Source: a phage. From it: a stretch of DNA of 64,000 bases. The DNA lies in sequence record PZ445534.1; one strand, written 5' to 3'. This document shows, piece by piece, positions 5,170-63,480 of this stretch. The position numbers were made by a program, and so were the translations under genes. The notes beneath the pieces were generated by a model. The model did not search any database. It was not told the origin of the DNA and worked only from the letters and a program-made list of their open reading frames with translations. The stretch's first letter is position 1, and every line of letters starts with the position of its first letter.

Positions 5170-6273
5170 TTACTCATAATCCCTAATAACTAGCCCGACA
5201 GGGAACTGTAAAGAACCCTTACGAGTCATCTTCTGGAACTGAACCGTTAGAGGCTTCCCGATAAACTCTTCAGGATGCTCAGCAAGATACTGTTTCTTCT
5301 CATGAGTAGTCTTCCATGAGACATCTACAAAGACGTTAGGAAGAGTCTCTACAACGAACTTACCATGACCACGTTTATCAGTCTTTACACCAGTAACTTT
5401 AAACTCTTCAGTGTGCATCTTCTTGTGCTTAATCAAGAAGTATGAACGGTGACCACACTCATAGAAAGATTCTTCAGAGATTGAACGGTACATTGCACCT
5501 TCAAACTTAGCTTCAACCCACTTATCATGAGCTTCATCAAATTCTTCCCAAGAATTTACACGACGAGACTTAACAGGAACAACTTTACAGCCATCTCTAA
5601 AGTCATTCAATGGTGAAGTCTCAATAATATCTCTACGCTCAGGCCACGTCTTAGTGCTGTCACAGATATCGTACCAGTAAAACTTGAGTAAATGTCGGTC
5701 AGGATTGTCTTCATTTTTAATCATGGAGACAATATCTTCTAAGTCCCACCCATGAGCATAAATCTCACCATCAAATTCATCAACATCTTTATGGAGCCTC
5801 AACATTGCCATAATGTCAGGTATTAGCTCAGTAGGAATTTTATAAATAGTGTTCTCACGAGAATATGCTGTAAATACACTGCCAATACTCAAGTGTCTTG
5901 AAATTCTACAACGGACACCATCAAGTTTTGGTTGAGCATCAGCAGGGAACTTCAGATACTTTGCATGGCTAACCTTTGCAGCATCATGAGCAAGCTGTAC
6001 ACCTACCTTCTCAGTATTCTGTGCAGACTCTTTTGTGTAAGCATAACCTTTGCGGTCTACTTGCTTTTTATACTTAGCAGCAACTTCAAAGAGAGCTTGC
6101 TGTTCAGCATTACGCTCATTCTTTTTACCGATGTTCTTAGGCTCTGCTGTGTACTCTTCAAACATCATCTTGCCATTTTCTTTACCATAGGTTGTAATAA
6201 CTTTGTTACCTATAGCACCGCATGACCAGATGTTGAAGGAACCGTCTTTATTTTGTTTGTATAGTGTTGTCAT
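5170..6273 (-). CDS. ATP-dependent DNA ligase (nucleotidyltransferase, T7 gp1.3-like size)
   Basis: Motif I lysine in PKLDGVRCRI (KxDGxR) within a 367-aa ORF; could alternatively be an RNA ligase. Confidence 0.6.
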   Translation of the reverse strand: MTTLYKQNKDGSFNIWSCGAIGNKVITTYGKENGKMMFEEYTAEPKNIGKKNERNAEQQALFEVAAKYKKQVDRKGYAYTKESAQNTEKVGVQLAHDAAKVSHAKYLKFPADAQPKLDGVRCRISRHLSIGSVFTAYSRENTIYKIPTELIPDIMAMLRLHKDVDEFDGEIYAHGWDLEDIVSMIKNEDNPDRHLLKFYWYDICDSTKTWPERRDIIETSPLNDFRDGCKVVPVKSRRVNSWEEFDEAHDKWVEAKFEGAMYRSISEESFYECGHRSYFLIKHKKMHTEEFKVTGVKTDKRGHGKFVVETLPNVFVDVSWKTTHEKKQYLAEHPEEFIGKPLTVQFQKMTRKGSLQFPVGLVIRDYE

Positions 6274-6575
6274 TTTCTCTTACCACCAATCTCTACGTCG
6301 ATAACCTGAACATCACCAGCAACATCAAACTTATGAATGATGCTTTCCACAGTGTAAGTCCAACCATCAATGCGAACCAACTCACCTTCTCGTGGGACGA
6401 TTGGATTACGTTGAGCTATGGTTGTAGTGGAGTGAACAACATCATAACGATAGATATAGTTTACTAATACTTCCATCGTGAAAACCTCACTCAATAACCG
6501 TAGTATGTGATTGACCATTTTTGCCATAGCTATAAGATGTTGTTGTTTGAGAGTTTGGGCATCTGACAACAACAA
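6270..6575 (-). CDS. hypothetical protein
   Basis: 101-aa ORF; 5' part overlaps the lipoprotein ORF so true start may be internal. Confidence 0.3.
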   Translation of the reverse strand: MLLSDAQTLKQQHLIAMAKMVNHILRLLSEVFTMEVLVNYIYRYDVVHSTTTIAQRNPIVPREGELVRIDGWTYTVESIIHKFDVAGDVQVIDVEIGGKRK

Positions 6576-6744
6576 TATCTCTGCTTATAGCATCACCATT
6601 GAGTTTGTAGATTTTGCAGTCTTGCATCTCTGGAGGGAGGCTGTAAGAAGCATCTTTGTTTTCATAAGATGGGTTGCAGCCAGCCAGAAAAATTACTCCA
6701 AGTGCAACCATTGCTTTCACACAACTCTTAACCTTATTGTTCAC
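6487..6744 (-). CDS. putative lipoprotein
   Basis: Signal peptide with lipobox FLAGC. Confidence 0.4.
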   Translation of the reverse strand: MNNKVKSCVKAMVALGVIFLAGCNPSYENKDASYSLPPEMQDCKIYKLNGDAISRDIVVVRCPNSQTTTSYSYGKNGQSHTTVIE

Positions 6745-6876
6745 GATAGTCTACCTCTCTGTATGTTTTTAAATAGTGAGTGATGAGTTCTGGTAATTCA
6801 CTACGTTTAACGTTTGAACGAAGAAGTGTCCAGTCAAAACCCTTACCAACCCTTCCCCAGAGACTGTACATTTTCT

Positions 6877-7352: not shown

Positions 7353-7886
7353 TCAACTTAGTTTTGCAAACTCTCCGTGGAGTTTAATAGCAGCTTCACA
7401 GTAAGCTTTATGGGCTTCTTCAGGTGTGTCATGGTGACCTAAAAACATCTTCTTACCTTTATAACTTATCTGTGCGACCCACTTACCAGACTTCTTCTTA
7501 AGACTTACACCCTTGTACCCAGATTTATTGGTGACCGGTTTACCTTTATTCCAAGCACTTTGAAAATCATCTGCTTCCCTTAAGTTTACAATCCTGTTGT
7601 CAAGTGAGTCTCCGTTGATATGGTCAATGATACCTTTTGGCATCTTGCCATACACGTAAAGCCATGCGAGTCTGTGTGCTTTATGTGCTTTCTTGTCAAA
7701 ATAGATACTAACCTGTTTATGACCACTTGAATCAGTCTGGATATTACCTGCCACCTTTCCTGCATAATTACTGTTAAAAACACTAACAGCTCTTGATTTA
7801 CCTTCTCTACGAAGCCAAGTAAAGACCCCTGTTTCGGGGTCATAGTGCAGCAGCTCCTTTAAACGTTTTTGTAAAATTAAATCCAT
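7353..7886 (-). CDS. HNH homing endonuclease with AP2-like DNA-binding domain
   Basis: HNH_3-like core DHINGDSLDNRIVNLR and AP2-like SGYKGVS...GKWVAQI...EEAHKAY; N-terminus LHYDPETGVFTW shared with ORF 17725-18240. Confidence 0.7.
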   Translation of the reverse strand: MDLILQKRLKELLHYDPETGVFTWLRREGKSRAVSVFNSNYAGKVAGNIQTDSSGHKQVSIYFDKKAHKAHRLAWLYVYGKMPKGIIDHINGDSLDNRIVNLREADDFQSAWNKGKPVTNKSGYKGVSLKKKSGKWVAQISYKGKKMFLGHHDTPEEAHKAYCEAAIKLHGEFAKLS

Positions 7887-7889
7887 TAA

Positions 7890-8444
7890 TCAATGTACCT
7901 CATACCAGCTCTTACCAACCTTTGCTGTACCAGTTACAAGTGTTTCTTTCCTCAAACCTAAGTTTTTTGAAGCTTGTCCATACATCCAGTCAGCAATTGC
8001 TTTCATATCATGTGTCATACCCTCTGGACATTCCCAACTATTTTCATCGTGATATGCCAGAAGTAACCTTGCTCCGATAGCTGGTTTTCGAGCATTCAGT
8101 TTTGTCAGGCCATCTTCACAGGCTTTTCTTGCTGCTAGGTTGATGGCCTCATTCTGAATCTGTGCTTCCGAACTCATCAGGAGGTAGTTCAGTAGTTTAT
8201 GTGGAGATTTGCACCATATCCATGCTCCAGCGACCCTGATATAACCACCTTTAGCAATTGAAGAATTCTTCCCAAAAACCTCTTCCAGAGCCTTTTTAGA
8301 CGCCTTAAAATCGGCTTCTAAGCTATCAAGTAACTTCTTAATCTTTGGCAGACGCATATAGTAAGTTTGTTTAGTCAATGCACCTTCTTCCGTAGATGAT
8401 GCCTTGATAGTTTTTGCAAACTTCTCGTCTCCAGCCCCGAACAA
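7890..8444 (-). CDS. DNA polymerase (family A), downstream exon/fragment (motif B second half to motif C)
   Basis: FGAGDEK, KSPHKLLNYLL and AYHDENSWEC align with T7 gp5 YGAGDEK, RSPHAALNTLL, AWVHDEIQVGC; ORF track start is a TTG preceded by stop, no good RBS. Confidence 0.75.
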   Translation of the reverse strand: MFGAGDEKFAKTIKASSTEEGALTKQTYYMRLPKIKKLLDSLEADFKASKKALEEVFGKNSSIAKGGYIRVAGAWIWCKSPHKLLNYLLMSSEAQIQNEAINLAARKACEDGLTKLNARKPAIGARLLLAYHDENSWECPEGMTHDMKAIADWMYGQASKNLGLRKETLVTGTAKVGKSWYEVH

Positions 8445-8705
8445 TACATCTGGTCAATACACTCGCAAGGTGTACCAGTTCTCTTATGAACTTCTCCGCA
8501 TTTCTACGGAGTGTCGGACTATATCACGTAGCAGTGGTGCTACCGTTGCACTTGGGATGGTCATTAGCTTACCACCCTACTCTACTCAGTTCATACGTTA
8601 AGTATGCTTTTCGATAGTCTCTGAACGTTCCTCTTAAGAGGCTTCGCTGCTGATTACCATATCTTTACAGACTTAGGCTTCCAGCAATTCACAACGTTTT
8701 ACATG
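8445..8705 (-). ncRNA. putative ORF-less group I intron interrupting DNA polymerase motif B
   Basis: Intervening sequence with stop codons; coding strand has R-like GTTCAGAGACTA and S-like GATATAGTCC elements, ends in G; exact splice sites not resolved. Confidence 0.6.
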
Positions 8706-10886
8706 CGCCACTGACGCATAAATGCCATTTTTGGCTTTCTTACGACCTTTTGTAATCTCGTGGAGAAGTTCCTCATCCTGTGTCTCCCTACAACGAACAA
8801 TGTCTTCTTCCTTGTTCAGACCAAAGTAAATACTATTCAGTGTATGTGCATCAGTACCTGTGTAGACTTCATAGAGGTCATTCTCAGCATCATAACGCAG
8901 ATACTTGTCAGTTTCTGGGTTAAGATACTTGTCAAGATGCTTGCAGTAGTATCTACCATCATCTTGCTTAGTGAACTCAACTGACTCTTTACCCTCAGTT
9001 ACCGCTTTAGTGAAGTCTTCATCACCCATAAAGTTACAAAGAAGAACTAGCTGGGCTGAGTTTTGGTCTACAGAGACAACGTTAGTACCTTCTTCACAAA
9101 TCCACACCTCCCTCATAGGTGCTCCATAGACAGCAGCACCAGACGGTACGTTTACAATACCATATTGTGTCATACGTCCAGTTGAAGTACCAAACACCAT
9201 TGCACCAGCACTAAGGCGACCATCAGGACGAATCTGGTTCAACCAACCTTTTTCATCATCTTTTGAGTTCTCAATAGTTCTACGTCGGTGCATCAAAGTA
9301 TAGTACTTAGCAATCTTCTGTCCAAGCTCACCTTCAATCGTATCATAAGATGATTCAGTAAGTTTTGGTGAAGTACGGATTAAGCAAGGCTCAAGCAAAT
9401 CTGTGTATTTCTTCACAGACCAGTTATGCTCAATGTACTGGACACCTTCATGCTCAACATAGCTCAAACCACACCGCTCAACCATTTCCTGCCACTTAGG
9501 ATGCTTTGTAATCATCTTTTTATTGTCTTTGAAACGACAAACTTTGATAGGGCGACCATCTGAGTCTTTCTTGTAATTCCAGTCATCTGGAATCCAACCA
9601 ACTGATTTCAAGTAGTCTTTAACAACTGCTACCTGAGTCATACGAGAAACTTCAAACTCAATTGGTGTATATGGTGCATCAATCAAACCTGTGTAGCGAC
9701 TTGACTCAAGTTCAAAGTGGTTAACAACGTGGCTGTTATAGTACTTCACAGTTTTGACTGTTTTTACTGGCTTCCAGTCTTTGCATTTCTTACCAATCTT
9801 TGCGTTCAACTCATTGCAAATTGCACGAGCATCCTTCATTGCTACAAAACCTTCCTTGTACTCTTCACCAGTTACAGAGTTGGTTGGTGTATAGCAATTC
9901 CTTTTTTCAATGTTAAAAATCTTTGTAGTTGGCTTACCAAATGGTTTGATTTCGTATGTCTGCATCTCACCATTACGTACCTGCTGACGATACTTTGTCT
10001 TAGGGTACTTGGTAATTCTTTTCAGTCCATCTGCATGACCAAATGTTTCAACATACTCATTCCAAGCTTTTGCAAACTCTTCTCCAGTGACTTTACCTTT
10101 GGTCTTAATAGTTGGAGGAAGATGTGGTTCAACCTCTGAAGCAAGCTCATTAGTCAACTTGTCAAGTTCCTTTACATGGAACTCCATAAGCTCTTTATCA
10201 GCTTTCCAACCATTAATAGCTTGTTGACTCATCCAGAAAGATGTTTCTTTAGCTCGCATGTAGGTTTCATAAGTGTCTATGCCACACTTCTTAAGCTTGA
10301 GATACTCATTATCAAGTGCCCGTTTAGTTTTGGCGTTAATACGGATATCTTCTACAACACGAGTGAAGATTTCTGCATTCCACACACCCCAATGTTCAAT
10401 CTCTGGTTTACGAACACCAACACGAGCACCCCATGCAGCCAAGCCATGAGCACCTTTATAACCCTTTGGAGTTGGTCTATCCATCCACTGAACACGAGAC
10501 TGGATAAGAGAATCCTGAAAGAAATTACTCCACGGCTTACACTTTGGATTATCAAAGTTCCATAAATCCGGTGCAATGTGATTGAAAACCCACCAGTCAT
10601 AACCTAGACCATTATGAATGCAAAGACGTTTTGCCTTTAACGCAAACTCAACACCTTCACGTAAGCCACCCTTAATGTACTTGGTATACTTGTGACCGAG
10701 GATAGGCTCATCTGTAAAGACCCATACAGGCGGCTCTTTATCGTCAGATTTATAGTCTGCGAAAGCCATTACGTGCACTTTAGTGAACTCAAGGAGTAAA
10801 CCATCAGTTTCTGTATCACCAACTAAATGTAAGTTTTTAAAATCTACGTTTTCCATTTTTACTCCCTCTAAAATCATTAACCTCAT
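8673..10886 (-). CDS. DNA polymerase (family A, T7 gp5-like) upstream exon/fragment with 3'-5' exonuclease domain
   Basis: Exo motif VGDTETDG near N-terminus; ORF ends inside motif B (RKKAKNGIY...) shortly before an in-frame stop. Confidence 0.85.
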   Translation of the reverse strand: MRLMILEGVKMENVDFKNLHLVGDTETDGLLLEFTKVHVMAFADYKSDDKEPPVWVFTDEPILGHKYTKYIKGGLREGVEFALKAKRLCIHNGLGYDWWVFNHIAPDLWNFDNPKCKPWSNFFQDSLIQSRVQWMDRPTPKGYKGAHGLAAWGARVGVRKPEIEHWGVWNAEIFTRVVEDIRINAKTKRALDNEYLKLKKCGIDTYETYMRAKETSFWMSQQAINGWKADKELMEFHVKELDKLTNELASEVEPHLPPTIKTKGKVTGEEFAKAWNEYVETFGHADGLKRITKYPKTKYRQQVRNGEMQTYEIKPFGKPTTKIFNIEKRNCYTPTNSVTGEEYKEGFVAMKDARAICNELNAKIGKKCKDWKPVKTVKTVKYYNSHVVNHFELESSRYTGLIDAPYTPIEFEVSRMTQVAVVKDYLKSVGWIPDDWNYKKDSDGRPIKVCRFKDNKKMITKHPKWQEMVERCGLSYVEHEGVQYIEHNWSVKKYTDLLEPCLIRTSPKLTESSYDTIEGELGQKIAKYYTLMHRRRTIENSKDDEKGWLNQIRPDGRLSAGAMVFGTSTGRMTQYGIVNVPSGAAVYGAPMREVWICEEGTNVVSVDQNSAQLVLLCNFMGDEDFTKAVTEGKESVEFTKQDDGRYYCKHLDKYLNPETDKYLRYDAENDLYEVYTGTDAHTLNSIYFGLNKEEDIVRCRETQDEELLHEITKGRKKAKNGIYASVAHVKRCELLEA

Positions 10887-24522: not shown

Positions 24523-25722
24523 ATGAACAAAGTACAGATTATTAAAAAGAATGGCTCACTTGAAGAACCTGATATCAAAAAAGTTTTAGCAGCAGTCACA
24601 AAGTCAGCTAACAGAGTTGGTTATAAAGAGCTTCCACCAGATGTTACTCAAGCTCTTGAGTCAGCATTTATGAGGATTCTGGTAAAGTCCACTAAGCAGA
24701 ATAATTTGCTAATTTCGGTAAATGATATTCACAGTATTGTTGAGGGTGCTTTGGCAGAAGTCAATCACGAGATTTATGAGTCTTACTCAACATATAGAAA
24801 TTACCGTAAAGAGGTTGCTCAAAATTGGGATGAACTCTACCAGAAGACCAAAGATACACTCTTCTTAGGCGACCGAGAAAACGCTAATTTTGACAGCAGT
24901 TTAATTTCTACAAAAGGCTCAATTATTCGTGGTTACCTGACTAAAGAAATCTTTAAACAGTACCATTTAACACCAGAGGAACTTGAAGCCATTGAAAAAG
25001 GATTTATCTATATCCATGATTTAAGAGACCTAATTTTTGGTGGTATCAACTGTTGCCTGTTTGACATTGGTAAAGTCCTGAAAGGTGGCTTTGAAATGTC
25101 TGGCATTGAATATTGTGAACCGAAGTCTGTGCTGTCAGCCTTACAGGTTATTGGTGATGTAGTTCTTTCAGCAACTGCACAGCAATTTGGTGGCTTTACT
25201 TTAGCAGAGATTGATAAGGTACTTGTACCGTATGCTAAGAAGTCTCTACGTTACCATGCTGAAAAAGCAACAGCTTATGGTATTCCTAAAGAACATTACC
25301 ACAACTATGTCATGGAGCAGCTACAGATTGAATTAACTCAAGGTTTTCAGTCTCTTGAAATGAAGCTCAATACTGTGCCTTGTAGCCGTGGTGATTTTGC
25401 ATTCACAACTTTGACATTCGGGTTACTTGACTCAGATATGTCTAATGAAGATAACCGACTGCAATACATGATTGCGAGCACTCTCCTAGATGTTCGTATG
25501 AATGGACAAGGTAAGAGCAAGAAACCTGTTGTATTCCCTAAACTGGTTTATATTTATGACCAGAAGAGACACAATGAGAATATCTGTCAAGGCCACCTGT
25601 ACAGTAAAGCTATTGAGTGTTGCTCTAAAGCTATGTATCCAGATTTCTTAAGTGTATCTGGACATGGTGCTGTAGCAGAGGCTTTTGAGCGTTCTGGCAA
25701 GGTAATTTCCCCGATGGGTTAA
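24523..25722 (+). CDS. nrdD: anaerobic ribonucleoside-triphosphate reductase, exon 1
   Basis: ATP-cone-like N-terminus; ORF ends at TAA 25720-25722 which lies at start of intron-like sequence. Confidence 0.75.
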   Translation: MNKVQIIKKNGSLEEPDIKKVLAAVTKSANRVGYKELPPDVTQALESAFMRILVKSTKQNNLLISVNDIHSIVEGALAEVNHEIYESYSTYRNYRKEVAQNWDELYQKTKDTLFLGDRENANFDSSLISTKGSIIRGYLTKEIFKQYHLTPEELEAIEKGFIYIHDLRDLIFGGINCCLFDIGKVLKGGFEMSGIEYCEPKSVLSALQVIGDVVLSATAQQFGGFTLAEIDKVLVPYAKKSLRYHAEKATAYGIPKEHYHNYVMEQLQIELTQGFQSLEMKLNTVPCSRGDFAFTTLTFGLLDSDMSNEDNRLQYMIASTLLDVRMNGQGKSKKPVVFPKLVYIYDQKRHNENICQGHLYSKAIECCSKAMYPDFLSVSGHGAVAEAFERSGKVISPMG

Positions 25723-26023
25723 CAAGCTCTATAGCTCATCTAAAACGTGCCTAAACAGGGAAACTCTACAGATGTAGACAATCCTGTGCTAAATGATGTA
25801 CGATGTAAGAAACTATACAACATAGGAGTCTTACATGCCAAATAACTTCGAATATGAGTTTGAATACATCTAAATGCCGAACGACTAACCGTGATGAATG
25901 TAGCGGTGTAGGGTCAAGCGACTCGAAATGGTACGCTACTTAGAAATAAGTAGAAGATATAGTCTGGACTTACTGGCGACAGTAAGCAGCTTGAATAAAG
26001 CGGGGTAAGCTTAGCGAACTTAC
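25720..26023 (+). ncRNA. putative ORF-less group I intron in nrdD
   Basis: AAACAGGGAAACTCTACAGATGTAGACAATCCTGTGCTAAAT closely resembles the T4 td intron core as recalled; S-like AAGATATAGTC element present; 3' boundary uncertain (26014-26038). Confidence 0.7.
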
Positions 26024-26983
26024 TTGAACAACAAGTGTAGAGCATTTTTATCACCATACCATAACGAACATGGTGAAGAGTTTTATGTAGGTCGTGCTAA
26101 CATTGGTGCTGTATCTTTGAACTTACCAATGATTTATCAGTACACCAAAGAGAATGGCTTAGATTTCTGGAAAGAGCTTGATAAGTACCTAGAAATGATT
26201 CGCAGCTTCCACAAGAAACGTTACGAAATGATTGCTAATATGCCAGCAAGTTCTAACCCTCTTGCATTCACACAGGGTGGTCTGTACAAAGGGAATAAGA
26301 AACCTACTGACAAGGTTGGCTGGGATATCGTGAAGTCCTTCACAGCTTCTTTTGGGGTTACTGCGCTTGATGAGCTATCTGTTCTTGCTGAAGGTAAACG
26401 ACTCCATGAAGTTGGAAGCTGTAGTTTTGCATATGATGTTCTGGCATACATTAACATGAAAACTGAAGAGTTTAAGAACGAAGATGGCTTCTTGTATGCG
26501 GTATATGGCACTCCAGCAGAATCACTTTGTGGAACTCAGTTAAAACAGTTCAGAGATATGTTTGGCGTTATTAAAGGTGTCTCTGACAAGGAATACTTTA
26601 CAAACAGTTTCCATATGAATGTTGCAGCAGACATCTCACCATTTGAGAAGCAGGACTTAGAAGAGCCATTCTTCCATATCTGTAGAGGTGGTAGAATCCA
26701 GTATGTAAGGGTAGCTAACCCAGAAAACTTAACAGCACTTAAAAGTTGTATTACAAGAGGGATGTTGAAAGGTTTCTATCAGGGGCTTAACTTTGACTTA
26801 GCAATCTGTGAACATTGTGGTAACAGACCAAAGGCTGATGTTGAAGAATGTGAGGTTTGCCATTCACATGATATCTCTGTGATTAACAGGGTGTGCGGGT
26901 ACTTGTCATTCACAAAAATTAAAGGTCAGTCTCGAATGAATGACGCTAAGATGGCAGAAATTAAGGATAGGGTTTCTATGTAA
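26024..26983 (+). CDS. nrdD: anaerobic ribonucleoside-triphosphate reductase, exon 2
   Basis: C-terminal CEHCGN...CEVCH zinc site and glycyl-radical motif RVCGYL; true exon start probably slightly upstream of ORF-track start. Confidence 0.75.
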   Translation: MNNKCRAFLSPYHNEHGEEFYVGRANIGAVSLNLPMIYQYTKENGLDFWKELDKYLEMIRSFHKKRYEMIANMPASSNPLAFTQGGLYKGNKKPTDKVGWDIVKSFTASFGVTALDELSVLAEGKRLHEVGSCSFAYDVLAYINMKTEEFKNEDGFLYAVYGTPAESLCGTQLKQFRDMFGVIKGVSDKEYFTNSFHMNVAADISPFEKQDLEEPFFHICRGGRIQYVRVANPENLTALKSCITRGMLKGFYQGLNFDLAICEHCGNRPKADVEECEVCHSHDISVINRVCGYLSFTKIKGQSRMNDAKMAEIKDRVSM

Positions 26984-58622: not shown

Positions 58623-58699
58623 AAAGTTTATCTCTGTTTAGCTCAGCTTGGTAGAGCGTTCCGTTTGGGGCGGTAAGGCCGGAGGTTCAAGTCCTCCAA
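58623..58699 (+). tRNA. tRNA-Pro (anticodon TGG)
   Basis: Acceptor CTCTGTT/AACAGAG, D-arm AGCTCAGCTTGGTAGAGC, T-arm GGAGGTTCAAGTCCTCC, encoded CCA; one anticodon-stem mismatch. Confidence 0.7.
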
Positions 58700-58706
58700 C
58701 AGAGAC

Positions 58707-58784
58707 CAAATTAATGTTCCAGTAGACAAAATGGTATAGTCACCACTCTTTCAAAGTGGATATCTGAGGGTTCAAATCCCTTCT
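58707..58784 (+). tRNA. tRNA-Glu (anticodon TTC)
   Basis: Acceptor GTTCCAG/CTGGAAC, anticodon arm CCACT-CTTTCAA-AGTGG, T-loop TTCAAAT, CCA. Confidence 0.7.
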
Positions 58785-58786
58785 GG

Positions 58787-58866
58787 AACGCCAGTTTTGA
58801 CAGAAGACCAATTACAGCAAACTTAATCTACTCATCTGAAAGTTAATCGGACAAAGAAGATATTTG
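58787..58866 (+). repeat. inter-tRNA repeat element copy 1 (ACAGAAGACC-N4-TACAGCAA ... GGTCTGG)
   Basis: Conserved 5' and 3' motifs shared with copies at 58953, 59347, 59437. Confidence 0.6.
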
Positions 58867-58875
58867 GTCTGGTCA

Positions 58876-58951
58876 TTAAGAATTGCGGGTATAGAGAAAG
58901 GGCGTCTCACATGTCTCATTAGCATGGTATCGGCAGGTTCGACTCCTGCAC
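58876..58951 (+). tRNA. tRNA with CAT anticodon (Met/fMet/Ile2), irregular acceptor pairing
   Basis: D-arm GAGA-AAGGGCG-TCTC, anticodon arm CATGT-CTCATTA-GCATG, T-arm GCAGGTTCGACTCCTGC; acceptor 6 of 7 pairs. Confidence 0.5.
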
Positions 58952-58952
58952 C

Positions 58953-59025
58953 CGCCTCCAAATTTACAGAAGACCGTTTACAGCAATATTTATTAAATTT
59001 TTAGCGGAAAAATTGAAAGATACGG
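58953..59025 (+). repeat. inter-tRNA repeat element copy 2
   Basis: ACAGAAGACCGTTTACAGCAA ... ACGGTCTGGT. Confidence 0.6.
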
Positions 59026-59034
59026 TCTGGTAAT

Positions 59035-59108
59035 ACTAAATATGGTTAGGAAGCACATAAGGTATGTGCGGTCGCCTGTTAAGCGAATGGCACAGGGTTC
59101 GAATCCCT
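59035..59108 (+). tRNA. tRNA-Asn (anticodon GTT)
   Basis: Acceptor GGTTAGG/ACTAACC, D-arm GCAC-ATAAGGTAT-GTGC, anticodon loop CTGTTAA, T-arm CAGGGTTCGAATCCCTG; no encoded CCA. Confidence 0.6.
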
Positions 59109-59119
59109 GACTAACCGCA

Positions 59120-59207
59120 AAATTAAATGTGTCGTTATCCCGTAGATGGTAGCGGTGGGGACTGTAAATCCCTTGTCATTGAGACTCGGTAGGTTCGACT
59201 CCTACAC
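59120..59207 (+). tRNA. tRNA-Tyr (anticodon GTA), long variable arm
   Basis: Acceptor GTGTCGT/ACGGCAC, anticodon arm GGGGA-CTGTAAA-TCCCT, T-arm GTAGGTTCGACTCCTAC, CCA. Confidence 0.65.
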
Positions 59208-59212
59208 GGCAC

Positions 59213-59289
59213 ACCAATAAAGGCTATGTAGTTTAACTGGAGAAAATACTCCCCTGTCACGGGAGATGATGTGAGTTCAAGTCTCATCG
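59213..59289 (+). tRNA. tRNA-Asp (anticodon GTC)
   Basis: Acceptor GGCTATG/CGTAGCC, anticodon arm CTCCC-CTGTCAC-GGGAG, T-loop TTCAAGT, CCA. Confidence 0.7.
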
Positions 59290-59346
59290 TAGCCGCCAAT
59301 TTTGAGAGGGCTATTTAGCCCCTCCCTTAAAGAGTTCTTACGAGTA

Positions 59347-59428
59347 TTCTTTAAAGGAGCAGAAGACCAAATACAGCAAGAATGTATGATATTTTCAAGC
59401 CAATTCAATTTTGAAAAATTTAAAACTT
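59347..59428 (+). repeat. inter-tRNA repeat element copy 3
   Basis: CAGAAGACCAAATACAGCAA ... CTTGGTCTGGC. Confidence 0.55.
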
Positions 59429-59436
59429 GGTCTGGC

Positions 59437-59572
59437 TCAACAAATTTACAGAAGACCGTTTACAGCAAAACTTAAACAATCTATTTCTCGGTAAAGAAAA
59501 GGCGAAGGTTCGATTCCTTCACTCGGCAGAGGTCGAGTTGGTGTAATGGTAGCACTTAAGATGATAAACAAC
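59437..59572 (+). repeat. inter-tRNA repeat element copy 4 enclosing tRNA halves in permuted order
   Basis: ACAGAAGACCGTTTACAGCAA ... [anticodon-arm-like + T-arm GAAGGTTCGATTCCTTC + 3' acceptor ACTCGGC] GAG [5' acceptor GTCGAGT + D-arm GTGTAATGGTAGCAC] ... ACGGTCTGGT. Confidence 0.5.
59474..59547 (+). other. tRNA-like segments in 3'-half then 5'-half order (permuted tRNA or recombinant tRNA fragments)
   Basis: 3' acceptor ACTCGGC (59512-59518) is complementary, with one G.U, to GTCGAGT (59523-59529) located 4 nt downstream. Confidence 0.4.
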
Positions 59573-59721
59573 GGTCTGGTAATTATCTTTGCAGTAGCTT
59601 ATGTGGCTAATTATGTCGTCCCATGAGTGCCGATGAATTTCCTTAGCATGATTCTAGATTAGCTTAATAGGAAATGACTCTACAGACCCTTTAGCAAGGT
59701 CTGCGTAGGTTACTGCAAAGA

Positions 59722-59797
59722 TGATTTAATGGAAGTGTAGCAGAATGGTGATGCGGCAGACTTTTAATCTGACAGGCGATGGGTTCGAATCCCTCCA
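59722..59797 (+). tRNA. tRNA-Lys (anticodon TTT)
   Basis: Acceptor GGAAGTG/CACTTCT, anticodon loop CTTTTAA, T-loop TTCGAAT with weak T-stem, CCA; homologous to tRNA at 60957. Confidence 0.55.
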
Positions 59798-59802
59798 CTT
59801 CT

Positions 59803-59879
59803 ACCAAAAATGGTTCAGTCGCAGATAAGGTAATGCAAGGGTTTCATAAGCCCTATGAATGTGGGTTCGATTCCCATCT
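59803..59879 (+). tRNA. tRNA with CAT anticodon (Met/fMet/Ile2)
   Basis: Acceptor GGTTCAG/CTGAACC, anticodon arm AGGGT-TTCATAA-GCCCT, T-loop TTCGATT, CCA. Confidence 0.65.
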
Positions 59880-59881
59880 GA

Positions 59882-59957
59882 ACCTCCAATGCTGTGAAAG
59901 CACATATGGATGTGCATTCGGCTGATAACCGAAAGGCAGAAGGTTCGAATCCTTCTC
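59882..59957 (+). tRNA. tRNA-Ile (anticodon GAT)
   Basis: Acceptor GCTGTGA/TCACAGT, D-arm GCAC-ATATGGAT-GTGC, anticodon arm TTCGG-CTGATAA-CCGAA, T-arm GAAGGTTCGAATCCTTC, CCA. Confidence 0.7.
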
Positions 59958-59972
59958 ACAGTACCAATTTCA

Positions 59973-60001
59973 ATAAAGTTGTTGACATTAAGATGTGACT
60001 A
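59973..60001 (+). promoter_or_regulatory. sigma70-like promoter inside tRNA array (TTGACA-17-TATAGT)
   Basis: -35 59973-59978, -10 59996-60001. Confidence 0.55.
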
Positions 60002-60205
60002 CTTTATAGTAACCTTAGTTTTCGTTGCGTAGCGTCTATTTTGCAAATTTAAAATAAATGCAAACGACAATGTTTTTCTGGCAGTAGCTTGATAGGCTAA
60101 ACACCAGTGAGGTCTTCCAATCCCTCATCAAAGAATTTGGCGTACTCGCCCACGGTATGATTAATAAGGTGGGCATCTTTAAGGGCTTTCTAATAGAGTC
60201 TTTAA

Positions 60206-60287
60206 AGATAATTACGGGGCGTATCTCAGCGGTCTTCTAAACCGCCGTTAACCGAGTAAGTGGAGTATGCGGGTTCGAGTCCTGCCG
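60206..60287 (+). tRNA. atypical tRNA-like gene, possible anticodon TCT (Arg)
   Basis: Acceptor CGGGGCG/CGCCTCG, T-arm GCGGGTTCGAGTCCTGC, CCA; hairpin GCGGT-CTTCTAA-ACCGC; D-arm region not canonical. Confidence 0.4.
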
Positions 60288-60430
60288 CCTCGACCAATTT
60301 AGTTAGCAGATTACTTAGACGACCTAAGCGGGTCTTCCTGTAGGGAGGTGGTCTGTATCTCATGTTTTCCAGAACATGTAAATAATCTGAGAAGGGGCTT
60401 TACAGTGTTGAGATAATACGGTAAGCTTCG

Positions 60431-60513
60431 AATTATAGTATGGGACGATGTTAAGACTCTAAGGCATGAGCAACGGCCTCCAAAACCGTTTCAAAGGGGT
60501 TCAACTCCTCCGT
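60431..60513 (+). tRNA. atypical tRNA-like gene, possible anticodon CCA (Trp)
   Basis: Perfect acceptor ATGGGAC/GTCCCAT, T-loop TTCAACT, CCA; enlarged D region. Confidence 0.4.
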
Positions 60514-60526
60514 CCCATGCCAAAGT

Positions 60527-60614
60527 CTTATTAGGGGTAGGTAGCGGCTAATGGCAGCCAAACAGTCTTGAAAACTGTTGCCACTGTAGAGATACGGTGA
60601 GGGTTCGACTCCTT
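60527..60614 (+). tRNA. tRNA-Ser (anticodon TGA), long variable arm
   Basis: Acceptor GGTAGGT/ACTTACC, anticodon arm ACAGT-CTTGAAA-ACTGT, 20-nt variable arm, T-loop TTCGACT. Confidence 0.6.
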
Positions 60615-60770
60615 TACTTACCGCCTAATAAGATTTTAAAGCCAAGCTTCATTCGGATGTCGCTTTGGTATCCCTCGTGTATTGTCGTACACACTGATAA
60701 AACACCTAGTAGGTGTCACGGAGAAGAGATAATATCAAGCTCTCCAAAGGTTCTAGTCACCGGATTAAAC

Positions 60771-60797
60771 AAGACTATGCAAAGACCTTTTTAGGTC
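60771..60797 (+). terminator. rho-independent terminator inside tRNA array
   Basis: AGACC-TTTTT-AGGTCT plus TTTTT. Confidence 0.5.
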
Positions 60798-60872
60798 TTT
60801 TTAGAGGGCTTCTAAGGTTATTACAGCTTGTTGTGGAACCTTGTTGCTTAGGTTCTTAGAAGTTCTCTAAAA

Positions 60873-60949
60873 AGATTTAATGCACCTATAGCCCAACTGG
60901 TAGAGGCAGCAGACTTAGAATCTGCTCAGTGTGAGTTCGAATCTCTCTA
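60873..60949 (+). tRNA. tRNA with anticodon TAG (Leu by anticodon) but short variable arm
   Basis: Acceptor GCACCTA/TAGGTGT, anticodon arm GCAGA-CTTAGAA-TCTGC, T-loop TTCGAAT, CCA. Confidence 0.55.
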
Positions 60950-60956
60950 GGTGTAC

Positions 60957-61032
60957 CAAATTAATGCAGGTGTAGCAAAATGGTTATGCGGCTGACCCTT
61001 AATCAGTAAGACGATGGGTTCAATTCCCTCCA
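60957..61032 (+). tRNA. tRNA-Lys (anticodon CTT)
   Basis: Acceptor GCAGGTG/CACCTGT, anticodon arm GCTGA-CCCTTAA-TCAGT, T-loop TTCAATT, CCA. Confidence 0.55.
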
Positions 61033-61038
61033 CCTGTA

Positions 61039-61114
61039 CCAAACAATGGGGTCATAGTTTATATGGTTAAAATTCGAGTTTTGCAAACTTGGGAACTGAG
61101 TTCAATTCTCAGTG
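61039..61114 (+). tRNA. tRNA-Ala (anticodon TGC)
   Basis: Acceptor GGGGTCA/TGACTCC, anticodon arm CGAGT-TTTGCAA-ACTTG, T-arm CTGAGTTCAATTCTCAG, CCA. Confidence 0.7.
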
Positions 61115-61120
61115 ACTCCA

Positions 61121-61195
61121 CCAATTAGTGCATCCATAGTTTAAACGGGAAAATTACAGTCTTCCAAACTGAGGTTGAGGGTTCGATTCCCTCTG
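61121..61195 (+). tRNA. tRNA-Gly (anticodon TCC)
   Basis: Acceptor GCATCCA/TGGATGC, anticodon loop CTTCCAA, T-arm GAGGGTTCGATTCCCTC, CCA. Confidence 0.7.
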
Positions 61196-61202
61196 GATGC
61201 TC

Positions 61203-61278
61203 CAAATTAATGCTCCTATCGTATAATTGGTTATTACGGTTGCCTTGTAAGCAACTTATCAGGGTTCGAGTCCTTGTG
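61203..61278 (+). tRNA. tRNA-Thr (anticodon TGT)
   Basis: Acceptor GCTCCTA/TGGGAGC, anticodon arm GTTGC-CTTGTAA-GCAAC, T-loop TTCGAGT, CCA. Confidence 0.7.
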
Positions 61279-61384
61279 GGAGCACCAATTCAGAGGTCAA
61301 GTGAAAGACCGCTTTGAGTCAACTGAAGACCGTAACAAATTCCACGAAGTTGAGTTAGCGGCACAACTTCAGACCTCTTTCATA

Positions 61385-61459
61385 CTCGCTTAGTTTATAT
61401 GGTAAAACATCACCCTTACAAGATGAAGAAAAAGGTTCAAGTCCTTTAGTGAGTACCAT
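61385..61459 (+). tRNA. tRNA-Val (anticodon TAC)
   Basis: Acceptor ACTCGCT/AGTGAGT, anticodon loop CTTACAA, T-arm AAAGGTTCAAGTCCTTT, CCA. Confidence 0.6.
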
Positions 61460-61460
61460 G

Positions 61461-61538
61461 TTCCAGTATCCCAATTGGCAGAGGATGCAAGCTCAAACCT
61501 TGTATTAGTGACGGTTCGAATCCGTCTTGGAACACCAA
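61461..61538 (+). tRNA. tRNA with anticodon CAA (Leu by anticodon) but short variable arm
   Basis: Acceptor GTTCCAG/TTGGAAC, anticodon arm GCAAG-CTCAAAC-CTTGT, T-arm GACGGTTCGAATCCGTC, CCA. Confidence 0.55.
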
Positions 61539-61543
61539 TTTTG

Positions 61544-61619
61544 CAGGATTAGTTCAAATGGATAGAGCAACAGTCTACGAAGCTGCTAATAGGGGTTCGA
61601 ATCCCTTATCCTGCGCCAA
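61544..61619 (+). tRNA. tRNA-Arg (anticodon ACG)
   Basis: Acceptor GCAGGAT/ATCCTGC, D-arm GTTC-AAATGGATA-GAGC, anticodon loop CTACGAA, T-loop TTCGAAT, CCA. Confidence 0.6.
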
Positions 61620-61637
61620 TTTAAAGAGGCTATTTAG

Positions 61638-62195
61638 ATGAGATATTTGAAGTATGCTTCATGGATTTTCTTAGCTTTGTTAGAGCCATTTGCAGCAATC
61701 TTAGCAGTTATCTTAGCACCTTTTGTAGTTCCATTCTACAGTGAGAAGAAAGGGCACTTACCTTTCGGGTTCAGATGGATGGAGACATATGACAACCCAA
61801 TTGATGGTGATGAAGGTCACGTTAAAAGATGGGCTAATATTAGATGGATTGGTAAACTAGGTGTCTACATGCAAAGAGTCGGATGGCTCTGGAGAAACAA
61901 AGCTTATAACTTCTCTTACCATGTATTAGGAAGAGATGTAAGAGATGTTACTAAGTGGAAAGGTAATATCAACGTAAGTTCTGACCCCGAAGATAATCAG
62001 ACAGGTTATCTCCTAATGTGGAACAGTAATGCTTGGGGATTATTCGCTTTTATCCCATCAATTAAAATCTTTGGTAAACAATTTTACTGGAGAATTTATA
62101 TTGGATGGAAACTAAAAAGTGTTGTCCCAGAAGAAAGAGCATTCTCAAGGGAAAGAGTTATGTTGGCATTCTTTATTCATCCACTGAGAAAGTAA
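61638..62195 (+). CDS. hypothetical membrane-anchored protein encoded within tRNA array
   Basis: 185-aa ORF with N-terminal hydrophobic segment WIFLALLEPFAAILAVILAPFVV. Confidence 0.45.
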   Translation: MRYLKYASWIFLALLEPFAAILAVILAPFVVPFYSEKKGHLPFGFRWMETYDNPIDGDEGHVKRWANIRWIGKLGVYMQRVGWLWRNKAYNFSYHVLGRDVRDVTKWKGNINVSSDPEDNQTGYLLMWNSNAWGLFAFIPSIKIFGKQFYWRIYIGWKLKSVVPEERAFSRERVMLAFFIHPLRK

Positions 62196-62203
62196 AGATT
62201 TAA

Positions 62204-62279
62204 AGGGGATTAGTTTACAAGGTTAAAACCTCGGTCTTTGAAATCGAAGAAGTTGGTTCAATTCCAACATCCCCCGCCA
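62204..62279 (+). tRNA. tRNA-Gln (anticodon TTG)
   Basis: Acceptor AGGGGAT/ATCCCCC (1-72 mismatch), D-arm GTTT...AAAC, anticodon arm TCGGT-CTTTGAA-ATCGA, T-arm GTTGGTTCAATTCCAAC, CCA. Confidence 0.6.
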
Positions 62280-62281
62280 AT

Positions 62282-62360
62282 GCTCCATTACTCCAATTGG
62301 CAGAGAGGCCAGACTTAAAATCTGTGTTATGTATCGGTTCGAATCCGATATGGAGTACCA
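62282..62360 (+). tRNA. tRNA with anticodon TAA (Leu by anticodon), 7-nt variable loop
   Basis: Acceptor GCTCCAT/ATGGAGT, anticodon loop CTTAAAA, T-arm ATCGGTTCGAATCCGAT, CCA. Confidence 0.5.
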
Positions 62361-62365
62361 AATTT

Positions 62366-62441
62366 AGCGGTATAGCATAACTGGCAATGCAGCAGCCTCT
62401 GAAGCTGTCCTATTAAGGTTCAAATCCTTATGCCGCTGCCA
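62366..62441 (+). tRNA. tRNA-Gln (anticodon CTG)
   Basis: Acceptor AGCGGTA/TGCCGCT, D-arm GCAT-AACTGGCA-ATGC, anticodon arm GCAGC-CTCTGAA-GCTGT, T-arm TAAGGTTCAAATCCTTA, CCA. Confidence 0.7.
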
Positions 62442-62472
62442 CTTCTAAGGATTCTTGCGAGAGTCCTTAAAT

Positions 62473-62548
62473 GTGGCCTTATCATAAACGGTAATGACCC
62501 ATGCTGTGAACATGGTCTATACGGGTTCAAATCCCGTAGGTCACCCCA
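62473..62548 (+). tRNA. tRNA-His (anticodon GTG)
   Basis: Acceptor GTGGCCT/AGGTCAC, anticodon arm CCATG-CTGTGAA-CATGG, T-arm ACGGGTTCAAATCCCGT, CCA. Confidence 0.7.
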
Positions 62549-62554
62549 ATTTAT

Positions 62555-62630
62555 AGTCCAAGTAGCTTATATGGTTAAAGCGCGTGTCTGAAAAACATGA
62601 GAAGAGAGTTCAAATCCCACTGGACTACCA
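62555..62630 (+). tRNA. tRNA-Phe (anticodon GAA), boundaries approximate
   Basis: Anticodon arm CGTGT-CTGAAAA-ACATG, D-arm GCTT...AAGC, T-loop TTCAAAT; acceptor pairing ambiguous between two registers. Confidence 0.5.
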
Positions 62631-62646
62631 ATTTCAAAGGTGCTTA

Positions 62647-63381: not shown

Positions 63382-63382
63382 T

Positions 63383-63475: not shown

Positions 63476-63480
63476 ATTTT

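What the first reader, a model, noticed from the sequence alone, without database searches (positions are those of the whole stretch)
8445..8705. DNA polymerase gene split inside motif B by a putative ORF-less group I intron
The family-A polymerase reading frame stops right after ...RKKAKNGIY (first half of motif B) and resumes about 250 nt downstream with (L)FGAGDEK. Joined, these would give IY-x-x-LFGAGDEK, colinear with T7 gp5 IYGFLYGAGDEK as recalled. On the coding strand the intervening sequence carries group I R-like (GTTCAGAGACTA) and S-like (GATATAGTCC) elements and ends in G. The downstream fragment has no convincing RBS and begins at TTG, which argues for splicing rather than two separately translated polypeptides. 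A free-standing HNH endonuclease gene sits immediately downstream (7353-7886).
Basis: partly seen in the sequence, partly recalled or inferred. Interest (0 to 1): 0.85.

Follow-up and report, generated by a model that had tools for sequence, protein, structure and literature searches.

The report
Self-splicing intron in phage DNA polymerase
The DNA polymerase gene of this Felix O1-like phage is interrupted inside its catalytic O-helix by a 267-base group I intron with no gene of its own; this is real, but it is an ordinary kind of phage element that has already been noted in near-identical phages.

Summary
The window comes from a Felixounavirus. Rfam RF00028 scores 61.7 bits (cut-off 50, E 3e-13). 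A full P1-P10 fold can be drawn, with U.G at the 5' splice site, a terminal G, and P7.1/P7.2 (subgroup IA2-like, no P2). Joining the exons gives GIYALLFGAGDEK, identical to the uninterrupted 906-aa polymerases of intron-less relatives. The copy is ORF-less. Sibling introns of 780-805 nt carry an Endonuclease VII-motif homing endonuclease gene in the P6a loop, and a 311-nt deletion intermediate also exists. About 53 nt of flanking exon was co-imported from a divergent lineage, so the intron has moved horizontally. The downstream HNH-AP2 gene is an independent variable cassette that does not track the intron. None of this is new in kind. The Meda genome announcement (2019) reports this ORF-less polymerase intron, Fang et al. 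(2018) list the ORF-bearing siblings as intron-encoded, and the spliced LUZ24 intron lies 6 nt away in the same motif. Splicing was not tested here.

The parts
8714..10886 (-). DNA polymerase exon 1 (family A, T7-like; ends with U8714, the first base of codon L725)
   Evidence: ORF list; junction defined against the intron-less alleles L001 and L003; spliced CDS is 2730 nt / 909 aa with a single terminal stop. Relatives annotate either this ATG or the one 10 codons downstream as the start.
8447..8713 (-). Group I intron, 267 nt, ORF-less, subgroup IA2-like (P7.1/P7.2 present, no P2)
   Evidence: RF00028 61.7 bits, E 3e-13; the insert is exactly absent from intron-less relatives; P1-P10 model; no sense ORF longer than 26 aa.
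7890..8446 (-). DNA polymerase exon 2 (starts UA UUG UUC GGG...; stop codon at 7890-7892)
   Evidence: Pfam DNA_pol_A matches residues 713-907 as one stretch across the junction; alignment to T7 gp5 residues 517-621 runs across the junction.
8702..8720 (-). P1: exon UAUGCGU (8714-8720) paired with the internal guide GCGCAUG (8702-8708); U8714.G8708 wobble at the 5' splice site
   Evidence: 7 of 7 standard pairs, invariant in 11 variants.
8709..8713 (-). P10 guide CAGUG (the P1 loop), pairing with the first five bases of exon 2, UAUUG (8442-8446)
   Evidence: 5 of 5 standard pairs; all intron-bearing alleles keep GCG-U|UA-UUG, while intron-less alleles use other synonymous codons.
8648..8696 (-). 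P3 5' strand (8692-8696), P4 (8681-8686 with 8648-8653), and P5/P5a with a GUAA tetraloop (8657-8677)
   Evidence: P3 shows 3 double compensatory changes against ZQ2, P5 one and P5a one.
8625..8647 (-). P6 (8646-8647 with 8625-8626) and the trimmed P6a hairpin CCUC-UUAA-GAGG (8630-8641); this is where the endonuclease ORF sits in sibling introns
   Evidence: alignment of the 267/268-, 311- and 780-805-nt variants; U-A to C-G compensatory change in P6a.
8615..8626 (-). R element GUUCAGAGACUA, including the P7 5' strand (8616-8619)
   Evidence: aligned to the Rfam consensus GUUCAaAGACUA; invariant across variants.
8554..8606 (-). P7.1 (8602-8606 with 8592-8596) and P7.2 (8571-8577 with 8554-8561), joined by ...GAGUA
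   Evidence: these helices are the subgroup IA hallmark as described in PMC3428280.
8516..8548 (-). P3 3' strand (8544-8548), P8 (8528-8543), and the S element GAUAUAGUCC with the P7 3' strand (8517-8520)
   Evidence: P8 has a C-G to U-A compensatory change within the genus and 5 of 6 double changes against ZQ2.
8456..8511 (-). P9 with a GAAA tetraloop (8494-8511), P9.1 (8477-8492), P9.2 (8456-8476)
   Evidence: P9 shows 2 double changes against ZQ2.
8447..8447 (-). Terminal guanosine (omega-G) at the 3' splice site
   Evidence: junction comparison.
8673..8675 (-). In-frame UAA 39 nt into the intron; it would terminate translation of unspliced mRNA after 13 extra residues
8430..8751 (-). Co-conversion tract: the intron plus about 37 nt of exon 1 and about 16 nt of exon 2. 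These flanks are identical to intron-bearing alleles of a divergent clade (L021, L025), while the rest of the gene matches close intron-less relatives
7353..7886 (-). Free-standing HNH_3 + AP2 endonuclease gene (a neighbour, not part of the intron)
   Evidence: Pfam; present as types A, B or C, or absent, independently of intron status.

Best explanation
[quoted passage not shown] It sits inside the O-helix (motif B), after the first base of the codon equivalent to T7 gp5 F528 (about E. coli Pol I L764). The gene is transcribed as one pre-mRNA. The intron folds into the P3-P9 core, and its internal guide pairs with the last bases of exon 1 (P1, U.G at the splice site). A free guanosine attacks after U8714. 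The freed exon 1 end then attacks after the terminal G8447, with exon 2 held by P10. The ligated message encodes a 909-aa polymerase with GIYALLFGAGDEK restored. Unspliced message would give a truncated protein lacking half of motif B and all of motif C. The copy has no endonuclease gene. It is a reduced derivative of a mobile intron whose full form (780-805 nt) carries an Endonuclease VII-motif (DHHRN-type) homing endonuclease gene in the P6a loop. The intron entered this polymerase lineage by recombination with a short co-conversion tract. Today it can probably spread only passively, or with the endonuclease supplied in trans by a co-infecting sibling. Shown here: the fold, the boundaries, exon restoration, ORF loss and exon mosaicism. 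Inferred: the splicing chemistry and the mode of mobility.
For: RF00028 scores 61.7 bits against a cut-off of 50, E 3e-13. The insert is absent to the base from intron-less relatives, and the spliced protein equals theirs. The spliced protein aligns to T7 DNA polymerase 517-621 and to Pfam DNA_pol_A as single stretches across the junction. In the explicit P1-P10 model all 836 pair cells are standard pairs, against 26-49% when partners are slid, and all five variable pairs stay paired (2 double changes, 3 single-sided). Against the ZQ2 intron, 28 pairs are the same, 12 are double compensatory changes and none is broken. No sense ORF exceeds 26 aa. There is no promoter-like or terminator-like site at the insert. 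The variant series 805 / 780 (ORF truncated) / 311 / 267 differs only in P6a. The sibling ORF matches Pfam Endonuclease_7 with E 6e-20. Exon positions -37 to +16 are identical to a divergent intron-bearing clade, while the rest matches close intron-less relatives. The phages carrying it are viable isolates. The analogous LUZ24 polymerase intron, 6 nt upstream, splices in vivo (PMC10914365; junction).
Against: No RNA or cDNA data exist for this phage or its relatives, so splicing is inferred and not observed. Most base pairs are invariant within the genus, so the within-genus covariation signal is small, and the structure was derived from the window sequence itself. The ZQ2 helices were paired by hand because MAFFT misaligned them. 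The direction of change (ORF loss rather than ORF gain) rests on the 311-nt variant keeping a remnant of the ORF's 3' end, and on parsimony.
Confidence: 0.9

Rival explanations
1. The polymerase is a true split gene. Exon 1 and exon 2 are translated separately and assemble as two subunits, and the intervening RNA is a dead remnant that no longer splices.
For: Most GenBank records annotate two 'DNA polymerase' CDSs. Exon 2 can be read from a TTG. Functional split genes exist in phages (the Aeh1 nrdA case, cited).
Against: The split falls in the middle of the O-helix, two residues after the Y526 equivalent. No Shine-Dalgarno sequence is visible by eye in front of the TTG, and there is no promoter-like site there. 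The ribozyme core is nearly invariant, while the ORF nested in sibling copies diverges by about 20%, which implies selection on the RNA. All P1 and P10 pairs are kept, and the exon codons are constrained to fit them.
Confidence: 0.03
2. Collaborative homing: the ORF-less intron is mobilised by the free-standing HNH-AP2 endonuclease encoded just downstream (7353-7886). That enzyme would cut intron-less polymerase alleles at the insertion site, and the intron would protect its own genome, as with F-CphI and the psbA intron of cyanophage S-PM2.
For: An HNH gene sits 3 nt after the polymerase stop. The model has precedent (PMC6083498). The closest intron-less relatives carry a cluster of synonymous changes exactly at the insertion site, which could reflect escape from some endonuclease.
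Against: The HNH cassette and the intron assort independently. HNH type A lies next to intron-less genes (L001, L003, L008, L033). ORF-less introns occur with type A or with type B. Several intron-bearing genomes have no HNH at all (L013, L021, L024, L025). The window's exon 2 between the intron and the HNH gene matches the intron-less relatives, so the two were not imported together. HNH types B and C bring their own divergence tracts into the 3' end of the polymerase gene, which suggests targets there. A dedicated endonuclease already exists in sibling introns.
Confidence: 0.08
3. The intron still splices but is now an immobile relic. It is inherited only vertically and is on its way to being lost (the late stage of the homing cycle), and the apparent exon mosaicism is an old event.
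For: There is no endonuclease gene. All stages from full to truncated to deleted ORF, and empty sites, coexist in the genus.
Against: The same minimal P6a form occurs with two different P8 variants and two different exon-flank types (window/L012/L007 versus L002), so ORF-less copies have recombined into different backgrounds. ORF-bearing siblings that could act in trans infect the same hosts. This rival differs from the best explanation only on present-day mobility.
Confidence: 0.3

Closest known systems
The same intron in Salmonella phage Meda (MH586731; Microbiol Resour Announc 2019, PMC6486253)
   Same: 99.6% identical intron at the same site. The record gives the polymerase as a two-piece joined CDS. 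[quoted passage not shown]
   Different: Meda's copy has one extra base in P7.2 (268 versus 267 nt) and sits next to HNH type B, not type A. The paper gives no structure, subgroup, insertion-site analysis or splicing data.
ORF-bearing sibling introns of Felix O1-like phages (EC6, JH2, FSL SP-010/012/107, GEC_vB_B1), listed as 'intron-encoded' DHHRN / Endo VII-motif endonucleases by Fang et al. 2018 (PMC6083498)
   Same: Same insertion site and the same ribozyme, nearly base for base outside P6a.
   Different: They are 780-805 nt long and carry a 160-161-aa Endonuclease_7-domain ORF in the P6a loop. The window copy has lost it.
LUZ24 (Bruynoghevirus) DNA polymerase group I intron, 669 bp, with in vivo splicing shown (Ceyssens 2008, as cited; Putzeys 2024, PMC10914365)
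   Same: A group I intron in motif B of a T7-type family-A polymerase. Its Endo VII-motif ORF is 52% identical to the Felix-type ORF over 71% of its length and appears to sit in P6a.
   Different: In the LUZ24-like phage WS1160 the insertion is 6 nt upstream (the Y526-equivalent codon, phase 1). The ribozyme shows no significant nucleotide similarity beyond short core motifs. It carries an ORF.
Introns of T7-like phages: Berlin/YpP-G (motif B) and PhiI/W31/K1F (site 881)
   Same: IA2-type introns in family-A polymerase genes of enterobacterial phages, with the ORF in P6a. YpP-G also splits motif B and carries an Endo VII-motif ORF that is 46% identical.
   Different: The YpP-G site is 11 nt upstream (codon F524, phase 2). 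PhiI and W31 are at site 881 in motif C and encode HNH enzymes. K1F's motif B is uninterrupted.
SPO1, SP82, Bastille and Pf-WMP3 polymerase introns (site 674) and phiL7 (site 676)
   Same: Self-splicing IA2 introns in phage family-A polymerase genes. The Pf-WMP3 intron also lacks P2 and has P7.1/P7.2.
   Different: They use a different insertion site about 90 codons upstream in E. coli Pol I numbering, and they encode HNH nicking endonucleases.
Group I intron of Gamaleyavirus vB_EcoP-ZQ2 (in an annotated RNA polymerase gene)
   Same: It is the closest ribozyme outside the genus: 73% identity over 216 nt, the same P3-P9 architecture, and 12 compensatory pair changes.
   Different: It interrupts a different host gene, has a P2, and carries an HNH-AP2 ORF after P9 and not in P6a.

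Membership tests
Group I intron (Rfam RF00028) | Covariance-model score at or above the curated gathering score | tested here: met
   61.7 bits against 50, E 3.1e-13, full-length model match. The 311-nt variant scores 62.9 bits and the ZQ2 relative 91.8 bits.
Group I intron (Rfam RF00028) | P1 helix between the end of the 5' exon and an internal guide sequence, with a U.G wobble at the splice site | tested here: met
   UAUGCGU pairs with GCGCAUG (7 bp), with U8714.G8708 at the cleavage site; invariant in 11 variants.
Group I intron (Rfam RF00028) | Terminal guanosine at the 3' splice site and P10 pairing with the 3' exon | tested here: met
   G8447 is the last intron base. CAGUG pairs with UAUUG over 5 bp.
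Group I intron (Rfam RF00028) | Conserved core P3-P8 with the P3/P7 pseudoknot and R/S sequence elements, supported by covariation | tested here: met
   All core helices form. 100% of pair cells are standard pairs, against 26-49% when slid. There are 12 double compensatory changes and no broken pair against ZQ2. Caveats: most pairs are invariant within the genus, and the ZQ2 pairing was done by hand.
Group I intron (Rfam RF00028) | Removal restores an uninterrupted, functional host reading frame | tested here: met
   The spliced CDS has no internal stop. GIYALLFGAGDEK equals the intron-less alleles. T7 gp5 and Pfam DNA_pol_A match as continuous stretches.
Group I intron (Rfam RF00028) | Guanosine-dependent self-splicing of the transcript | not testable with these tools
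   This needs in vitro transcription with GTP, or RT-PCR from infected cells. It has been shown only for analogous introns (LUZ24; Pf-WMP3, PhiI, W31).
Subgroup IA2 | Extra helices P7.1 and P7.2 between P7 and the P3 3' strand, linked by G-U-A | tested here: met
   P7.1 is CAUAC/GUAUG and P7.2 is GGGUGGU/ACCA-U-CCC, with ...GAGUA immediately before P7.2. The criterion is as stated in PMC3428280. This was assigned by inspection; no subgroup-specific model was run.
Mobile group I intron with its own homing endonuclease | An endonuclease ORF inside the intron | tested here: not met
   The longest sense ORF is 26 aa. The feature is met in sibling copies, which carry a 160-161-aa Endonuclease_7 ORF in P6a.
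Collaborative homing (free-standing endonuclease plus ORF-less intron, S-PM2 psbA/F-CphI type) | The adjacent free-standing endonuclease co-occurs with the intron and targets the intron-less insertion site | tested here: not met
   Co-occurrence fails: the HNH types, or absence of HNH, are independent of intron state, and the exon between the intron and the HNH gene was not co-imported. Cleavage specificity itself cannot be tested here.
Intein | The insert is in frame with the host protein and has no stop codons | tested here: not met
   Read-through from exon 1 hits a stop after 13 residues, and several more stops follow.
Gene in pieces (independently translated fragments) | The second fragment has its own translation start signals | tested here: not met
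   The only start is a TTG with no Shine-Dalgarno-like sequence visible upstream, and there is no promoter-like site. The TTG is itself the L726 codon of the restored motif.

The most novel reading that the evidence does not exclude
Motif B (the O-helix) of T7-type family-A polymerases may be a shared hotspot for one endonuclease lineage. Related Endo VII-motif (DHHRN) homing endonuclease genes ride in the P6a loop of three ribozymes that show no significant sequence similarity to one another. They are inserted at three different positions within 11 nt: Berlin/YpP-G at codon F524, LUZ24-like at codon 526, and Felix O1-like at codon 528. This would imply that the endonuclease gene has moved between intron scaffolds and phage families. 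Within Felixounavirus, the ORF-less copy in the window would then be mobilised in trans by sibling introns. The cluster of ten synonymous changes at the insertion site in its closest intron-less relatives would be recoding selected to escape cleavage.
Probability: 0.3. Interest if true: 0.4.

Novelty: already known. Interest (0 to 1): 0.25.

Why it matters
There are two practical points. First, most of the roughly 95 public Felixounavirus records that carry this intron annotate the polymerase as two genes, and some add a spurious antisense 'hypothetical protein' inside the intron. Exact coordinates and a structural model allow these to be corrected. Second, one genus holds every stage of the homing cycle at a single site: empty site, full intron with endonuclease gene, truncated ORF, ORF-deletion remnant, and minimal ribozyme, with a measurable co-conversion tract. 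That makes it a convenient natural system in easily grown E. coli and Salmonella phages for studying intron invasion, decay and trans-mobilisation. It does not reveal a new mechanism.

Tried and rejected
1. My first splice-site guess (intron 8450-8719, exon 1 ending ...CAUUU) gave GIYVLFG, one residue shorter than the intron-less alleles. I rejected it after the junction comparison in favour of 8447-8713.
2. The first related-loci run was out of frame and was repeated.
3. Nucleotide anchors failed on the divergent loci, so I replaced them with peptide anchors.
4. MAFFT misaligned the ZQ2 intron through P7.1-P8. I compared helices by script instead, misregistered P8 by one base, and corrected it.
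5. Rfam at gathering threshold does not detect the ORF-bearing introns L004, YpP-G, WS1160 or K1F, presumably because of the large inserts. Their junctions were found by exon-joining logic, and the WS1160 result of 669 nt agrees with the published LUZ24 length.
6. I did not build a custom covariance model. A model of about 285 positions would probably exceed the calibration limit, and the Rfam hit plus the pair counts were enough.
7. Minimum-free-energy folding gives only a modest z-score of -2.16 and cannot show the P3/P7 pseudoknot. I used it only to confirm the local hairpins.
8. I considered and rejected intein, translational bypass, pseudogene and split gene (see rivals and the membership test).

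Full report
**What is in the sequence.** On the minus strand, a 737-codon ORF (8673-10886) encodes the N-terminal three quarters of a T7-type family-A DNA polymerase. It ends ...RKKAKNGIY and then reads on for 14 codons to a stop. A second ORF (7890-8444) begins at TTG with (L)FGAGDEK and carries the rest of the polymerase. An HNH_3 + AP2 endonuclease gene follows at 7353-7886. A scan of the whole window against Rfam gives a full-length match to RF00028 (group I intron) at 8494-8776(-). It scores 61.7 bits against a gathering score of 50, with E 3.1e-13.

**Origin and exact boundaries.** The region is 97% identical to Felix O1-like phages (Felixounavirus). 263 phage records match it. Some relatives (bumzen, FGS030) have a single uninterrupted 906-aa polymerase gene, as does Felix O1 itself, which was reported to lack introns (PMC3185647). 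Aligning the two kinds of allele shows that the insert is exactly 267 nt, at window 8447-8713. Exon 1 ends ...UAU GCG U and exon 2 starts UA UUG UUC GGG. My first guess, 8450-8719, made the protein one residue too short and I dropped it.

**The spliced protein.**
- The spliced CDS is 2730 nt with no internal stop. It reads ...KNGIYALLFGAGDEK..., identical to the intron-less proteins at the junction.
- It aligns to T7 DNA polymerase residues 517-621, and to Pfam DNA_pol_A, as single stretches across the junction.
- Y723 corresponds to T7 Y526. The split codon L725 corresponds to T7 F528 (about E. coli Pol I L764, from my own knowledge of the O-helix numbering).

**Structure.** I drew an explicit model with these elements:
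- P1: UAUGCGU paired with GCGCAUG, with a U.G wobble at the splice site.
- P10: the P1 loop CAGUG paired with the first five bases of exon 2.
- P3, P4, P5/P5a (GUAA loop), P6/P6a, and P7, which forms a pseudoknot with P3.
- P7.1, P7.2, P8, P9 (GAAA loop), P9.1, P9.2, and a terminal G.
- There is no P2. P7.1 and P7.2 joined by ...GUA place it in subgroup IA2, using the criterion stated in PMC3428280.

On an alignment of 11 distinct Felixounavirus variants, all 836 pair cells are standard pairs, against 26-49% when the partners are slid. The five pairs that vary all stay paired: two double compensatory changes (P6a, P8) and three single-sided changes. Most pairs never vary, so this test is weak on its own.

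The nearest ribozyme outside the genus is an intron in an annotated RNA polymerase gene of Gamaleyavirus ZQ2. It is 73% identical and scores 91.8 bits against RF00028. Across 40 core pairs it shows 28 unchanged, 12 changed on both sides and none broken. Thermodynamic folding recovers the local hairpins (z = -2.16).

**The copy is ORF-less; its siblings are not.**
- The longest sense-strand ORF in the intron is 26 aa.
- No promoter-like or terminator-like site lies in or next to the intron.
- Two antisense ORFs of 65-67 aa start at TTG. One of them is annotated as a hypothetical protein in phage L27 and is most likely spurious.
- Relatives carry the same ribozyme in longer forms. The 801-805-nt form has a 160-161-aa ORF in the P6a loop. 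A 780-nt form has that ORF truncated to 101 aa. A 311-nt form keeps the long P6a stem and a remnant of the ORF's 3' end. The 267/268-nt form has a trimmed P6a.
- The ORF matches Pfam Endonuclease_7 (E 6e-20). It has the CxxC...DHDH...R...CxxC-N pattern that Fang et al. 2018 call the DHHRN homing-endonuclease family. That paper lists the proteins of EC6, JH2 and FSL SP-010 as intron-encoded (PMC6083498).
- The ribozyme is almost invariant, while the nested ORF diverges by about 20% at protein level. This points to selection on the RNA.

**Distribution and movement.**
- In an IMG/VR sample of 29 Ounavirinae loci, 23 lack the intron, one has the short form and five have the long form.
- In the phage collection, about 97 records carry the intron, out of 263 that match the polymerase region.
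- Every intron-bearing allele has GCG-U|UA-UUG at the junction, which fits P1 and P10. Intron-less alleles use other synonymous codons.
- Against its closest intron-less relatives (about 4% divergent overall), the window's differences pile up in the 30 nt on each side of the insertion site (7 and 5 mismatches). From about -37 to +16 the window is identical to intron-bearing alleles of a clade that is otherwise far more divergent. This is a short co-conversion tract, the footprint of homing or recombinational import.
- ORF-less copies with the same minimal P6a occur with two different P8 variants and two exon-flank types. They have therefore recombined into different backgrounds.

**The downstream HNH gene.** It is a variable cassette with at least three allelic types (47-53% identical to each other), and it is absent in some genomes. 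It assorts independently of intron state. Types B and C bring their own divergence tracts into the 3' end of the polymerase gene. The window's exon 2 between the intron and the HNH gene matches the intron-less relatives. I therefore see no support for a functional link between this gene and the intron, although cleavage specificity cannot be tested here.

**Comparison with known polymerase introns.**
- Published insertion sites in phage family-A polymerase genes are 674 (SPO1, SP82, Bastille, Pf-WMP3), 676 (phiL7) and 881 (PhiI, W31) (PMC3428280). K1F's motif B is intact and its insert lies about 450 nt downstream, consistent with site 881.
- The Felix-type site (about 764) differs from all of these, but it is not the first in motif B.
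- The closest relatives of the sibling ORF outside the genus lie in polymerase introns of a LUZ24-like phage (52% identity) and of Yersinia phage YpP-G (46%).
- Exon-joining logic places those introns at the Y526-equivalent codon (669 nt) and at codon F524 (680 nt). These sites are 6 and 11 nt upstream of the Felix site.
- The 669-nt length matches the published LUZ24 intron, whose splicing in vivo has been shown (PMC10914365).
- The three ribozymes share only short core motifs at the nucleotide level.

**Prior knowledge.**
[quoted passage not shown] The Meda record joins the two exons, and its intron is 99.6% identical to the window's.
- A paper on phage SPJ41 reports 'two introns' from an ncRNA scan.
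- I found no structural, insertion-site or experimental analysis of this intron in the searchable library.
- The element is therefore already known at annotation level. What this analysis adds is detail: exact coordinates, the fold, the subgroup, the decay series, the co-conversion tract, and the clustering of motif-B sites.

**Verdict.** The mechanism is ordinary group I self-splicing (inferred, confidence about 0.9). The intron is an ORF-less derivative of a mobile intron. Interest is low to moderate (0.25).

Noticed in passing
window 25720-26035 (+): There is a second group I intron (RF00028, 54.6 bits) in the anaerobic ribonucleotide reductase gene nrdD. It is 316 nt and ORF-less, and joining the exons gives ...VISPMG|CRAFLSPY... 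in one 714-aa frame. Relatives show the same three states as the polymerase intron: no intron (match span 316 nt shorter), this short form, and a form about 426 nt longer that carries an HNH homing endonuclease. The split nrdD is already described in the literature (UAB_Phi87, Meda).
   Followed up: partly
window 7353-7886 (-) and the last ~250-460 nt of pol exon 2; loci L001-L036: The HNH-AP2 gene after the polymerase is a polymorphic cassette (types A, B and C at 47-53% identity, or absent). Types A and B share an identical last 22 residues (EEAHKAYCEAAIKLHGEFAKLS). Genomes with types B or C show sharp divergence tracts reaching into the 3' end of the polymerase gene. This looks like intron-less homing with co-conversion.
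   Followed up: partly
window 8404-8617 (+): Two antisense ORFs of 65-67 aa (TTG starts) lie inside the intron. One is annotated as a 'hypothetical protein' in some GenBank records (e.g. L27 BBJ27117.1). They are probably spurious calls over a structured RNA.
   Followed up: no
L006 (vB_EcoP-ZQ2, NC_070874) 460-1400: The closest ribozyme outside Felixounavirus (73% identity, 91.8 bits) splits an annotated RNA polymerase gene of an N4-like Gamaleyavirus. It carries an HNH-AP2 ORF after P9. That ORF is 33-35% identical to the free-standing HNH next to the window's polymerase gene.
   Followed up: partly
L040 (YpP-G) 2319-2999; L041 (WS1160) 2330-2999; window 8447-8713: Three polymerase introns with related Endo VII-motif ORFs are inserted at three different positions within 11 nt of motif B (T7 codons 524, 526 and 528), in T7-like, LUZ24-like and Felix O1-like phages. 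The ribozymes show no significant nucleotide similarity to each other.
   Followed up: partly
exon positions -10 to +14 around the insertion site in L001, L003, L008-L011, L033, L034: The window's closest intron-less relatives share ten synonymous differences packed around the empty insertion site (TAC GCC CTG TTA TTT GGA GCC), plus an A-to-S change four codons upstream. No other clade has these. This may be recoding that resists an endonuclease, but that is untested.
   Followed up: no
window 58632-63553 (+): There is a cluster of about 24 tRNA genes (Rfam RF00005 hits), as expected for a Felix O1-like genome.
   Followed up: no
public records MG065664, MG065668 ('Campylobacter phage A132/A126') and GU169904 ('Staphylococcus phage SA1'): Records named for unrelated hosts contain Felixounavirus sequence that is 93-96% identical to the window (the polymerase region and nrdD). 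This suggests contamination or mislabelling in those deposits.
   Followed up: no
L004 (GEC_vB_B1) 5954-6805: In this relative the DNA ligase is annotated as two overlapping CDSs, which may reflect a frameshift or a sequencing error. The window's ligase (5170-6273) is intact at 367 aa.
   Followed up: no
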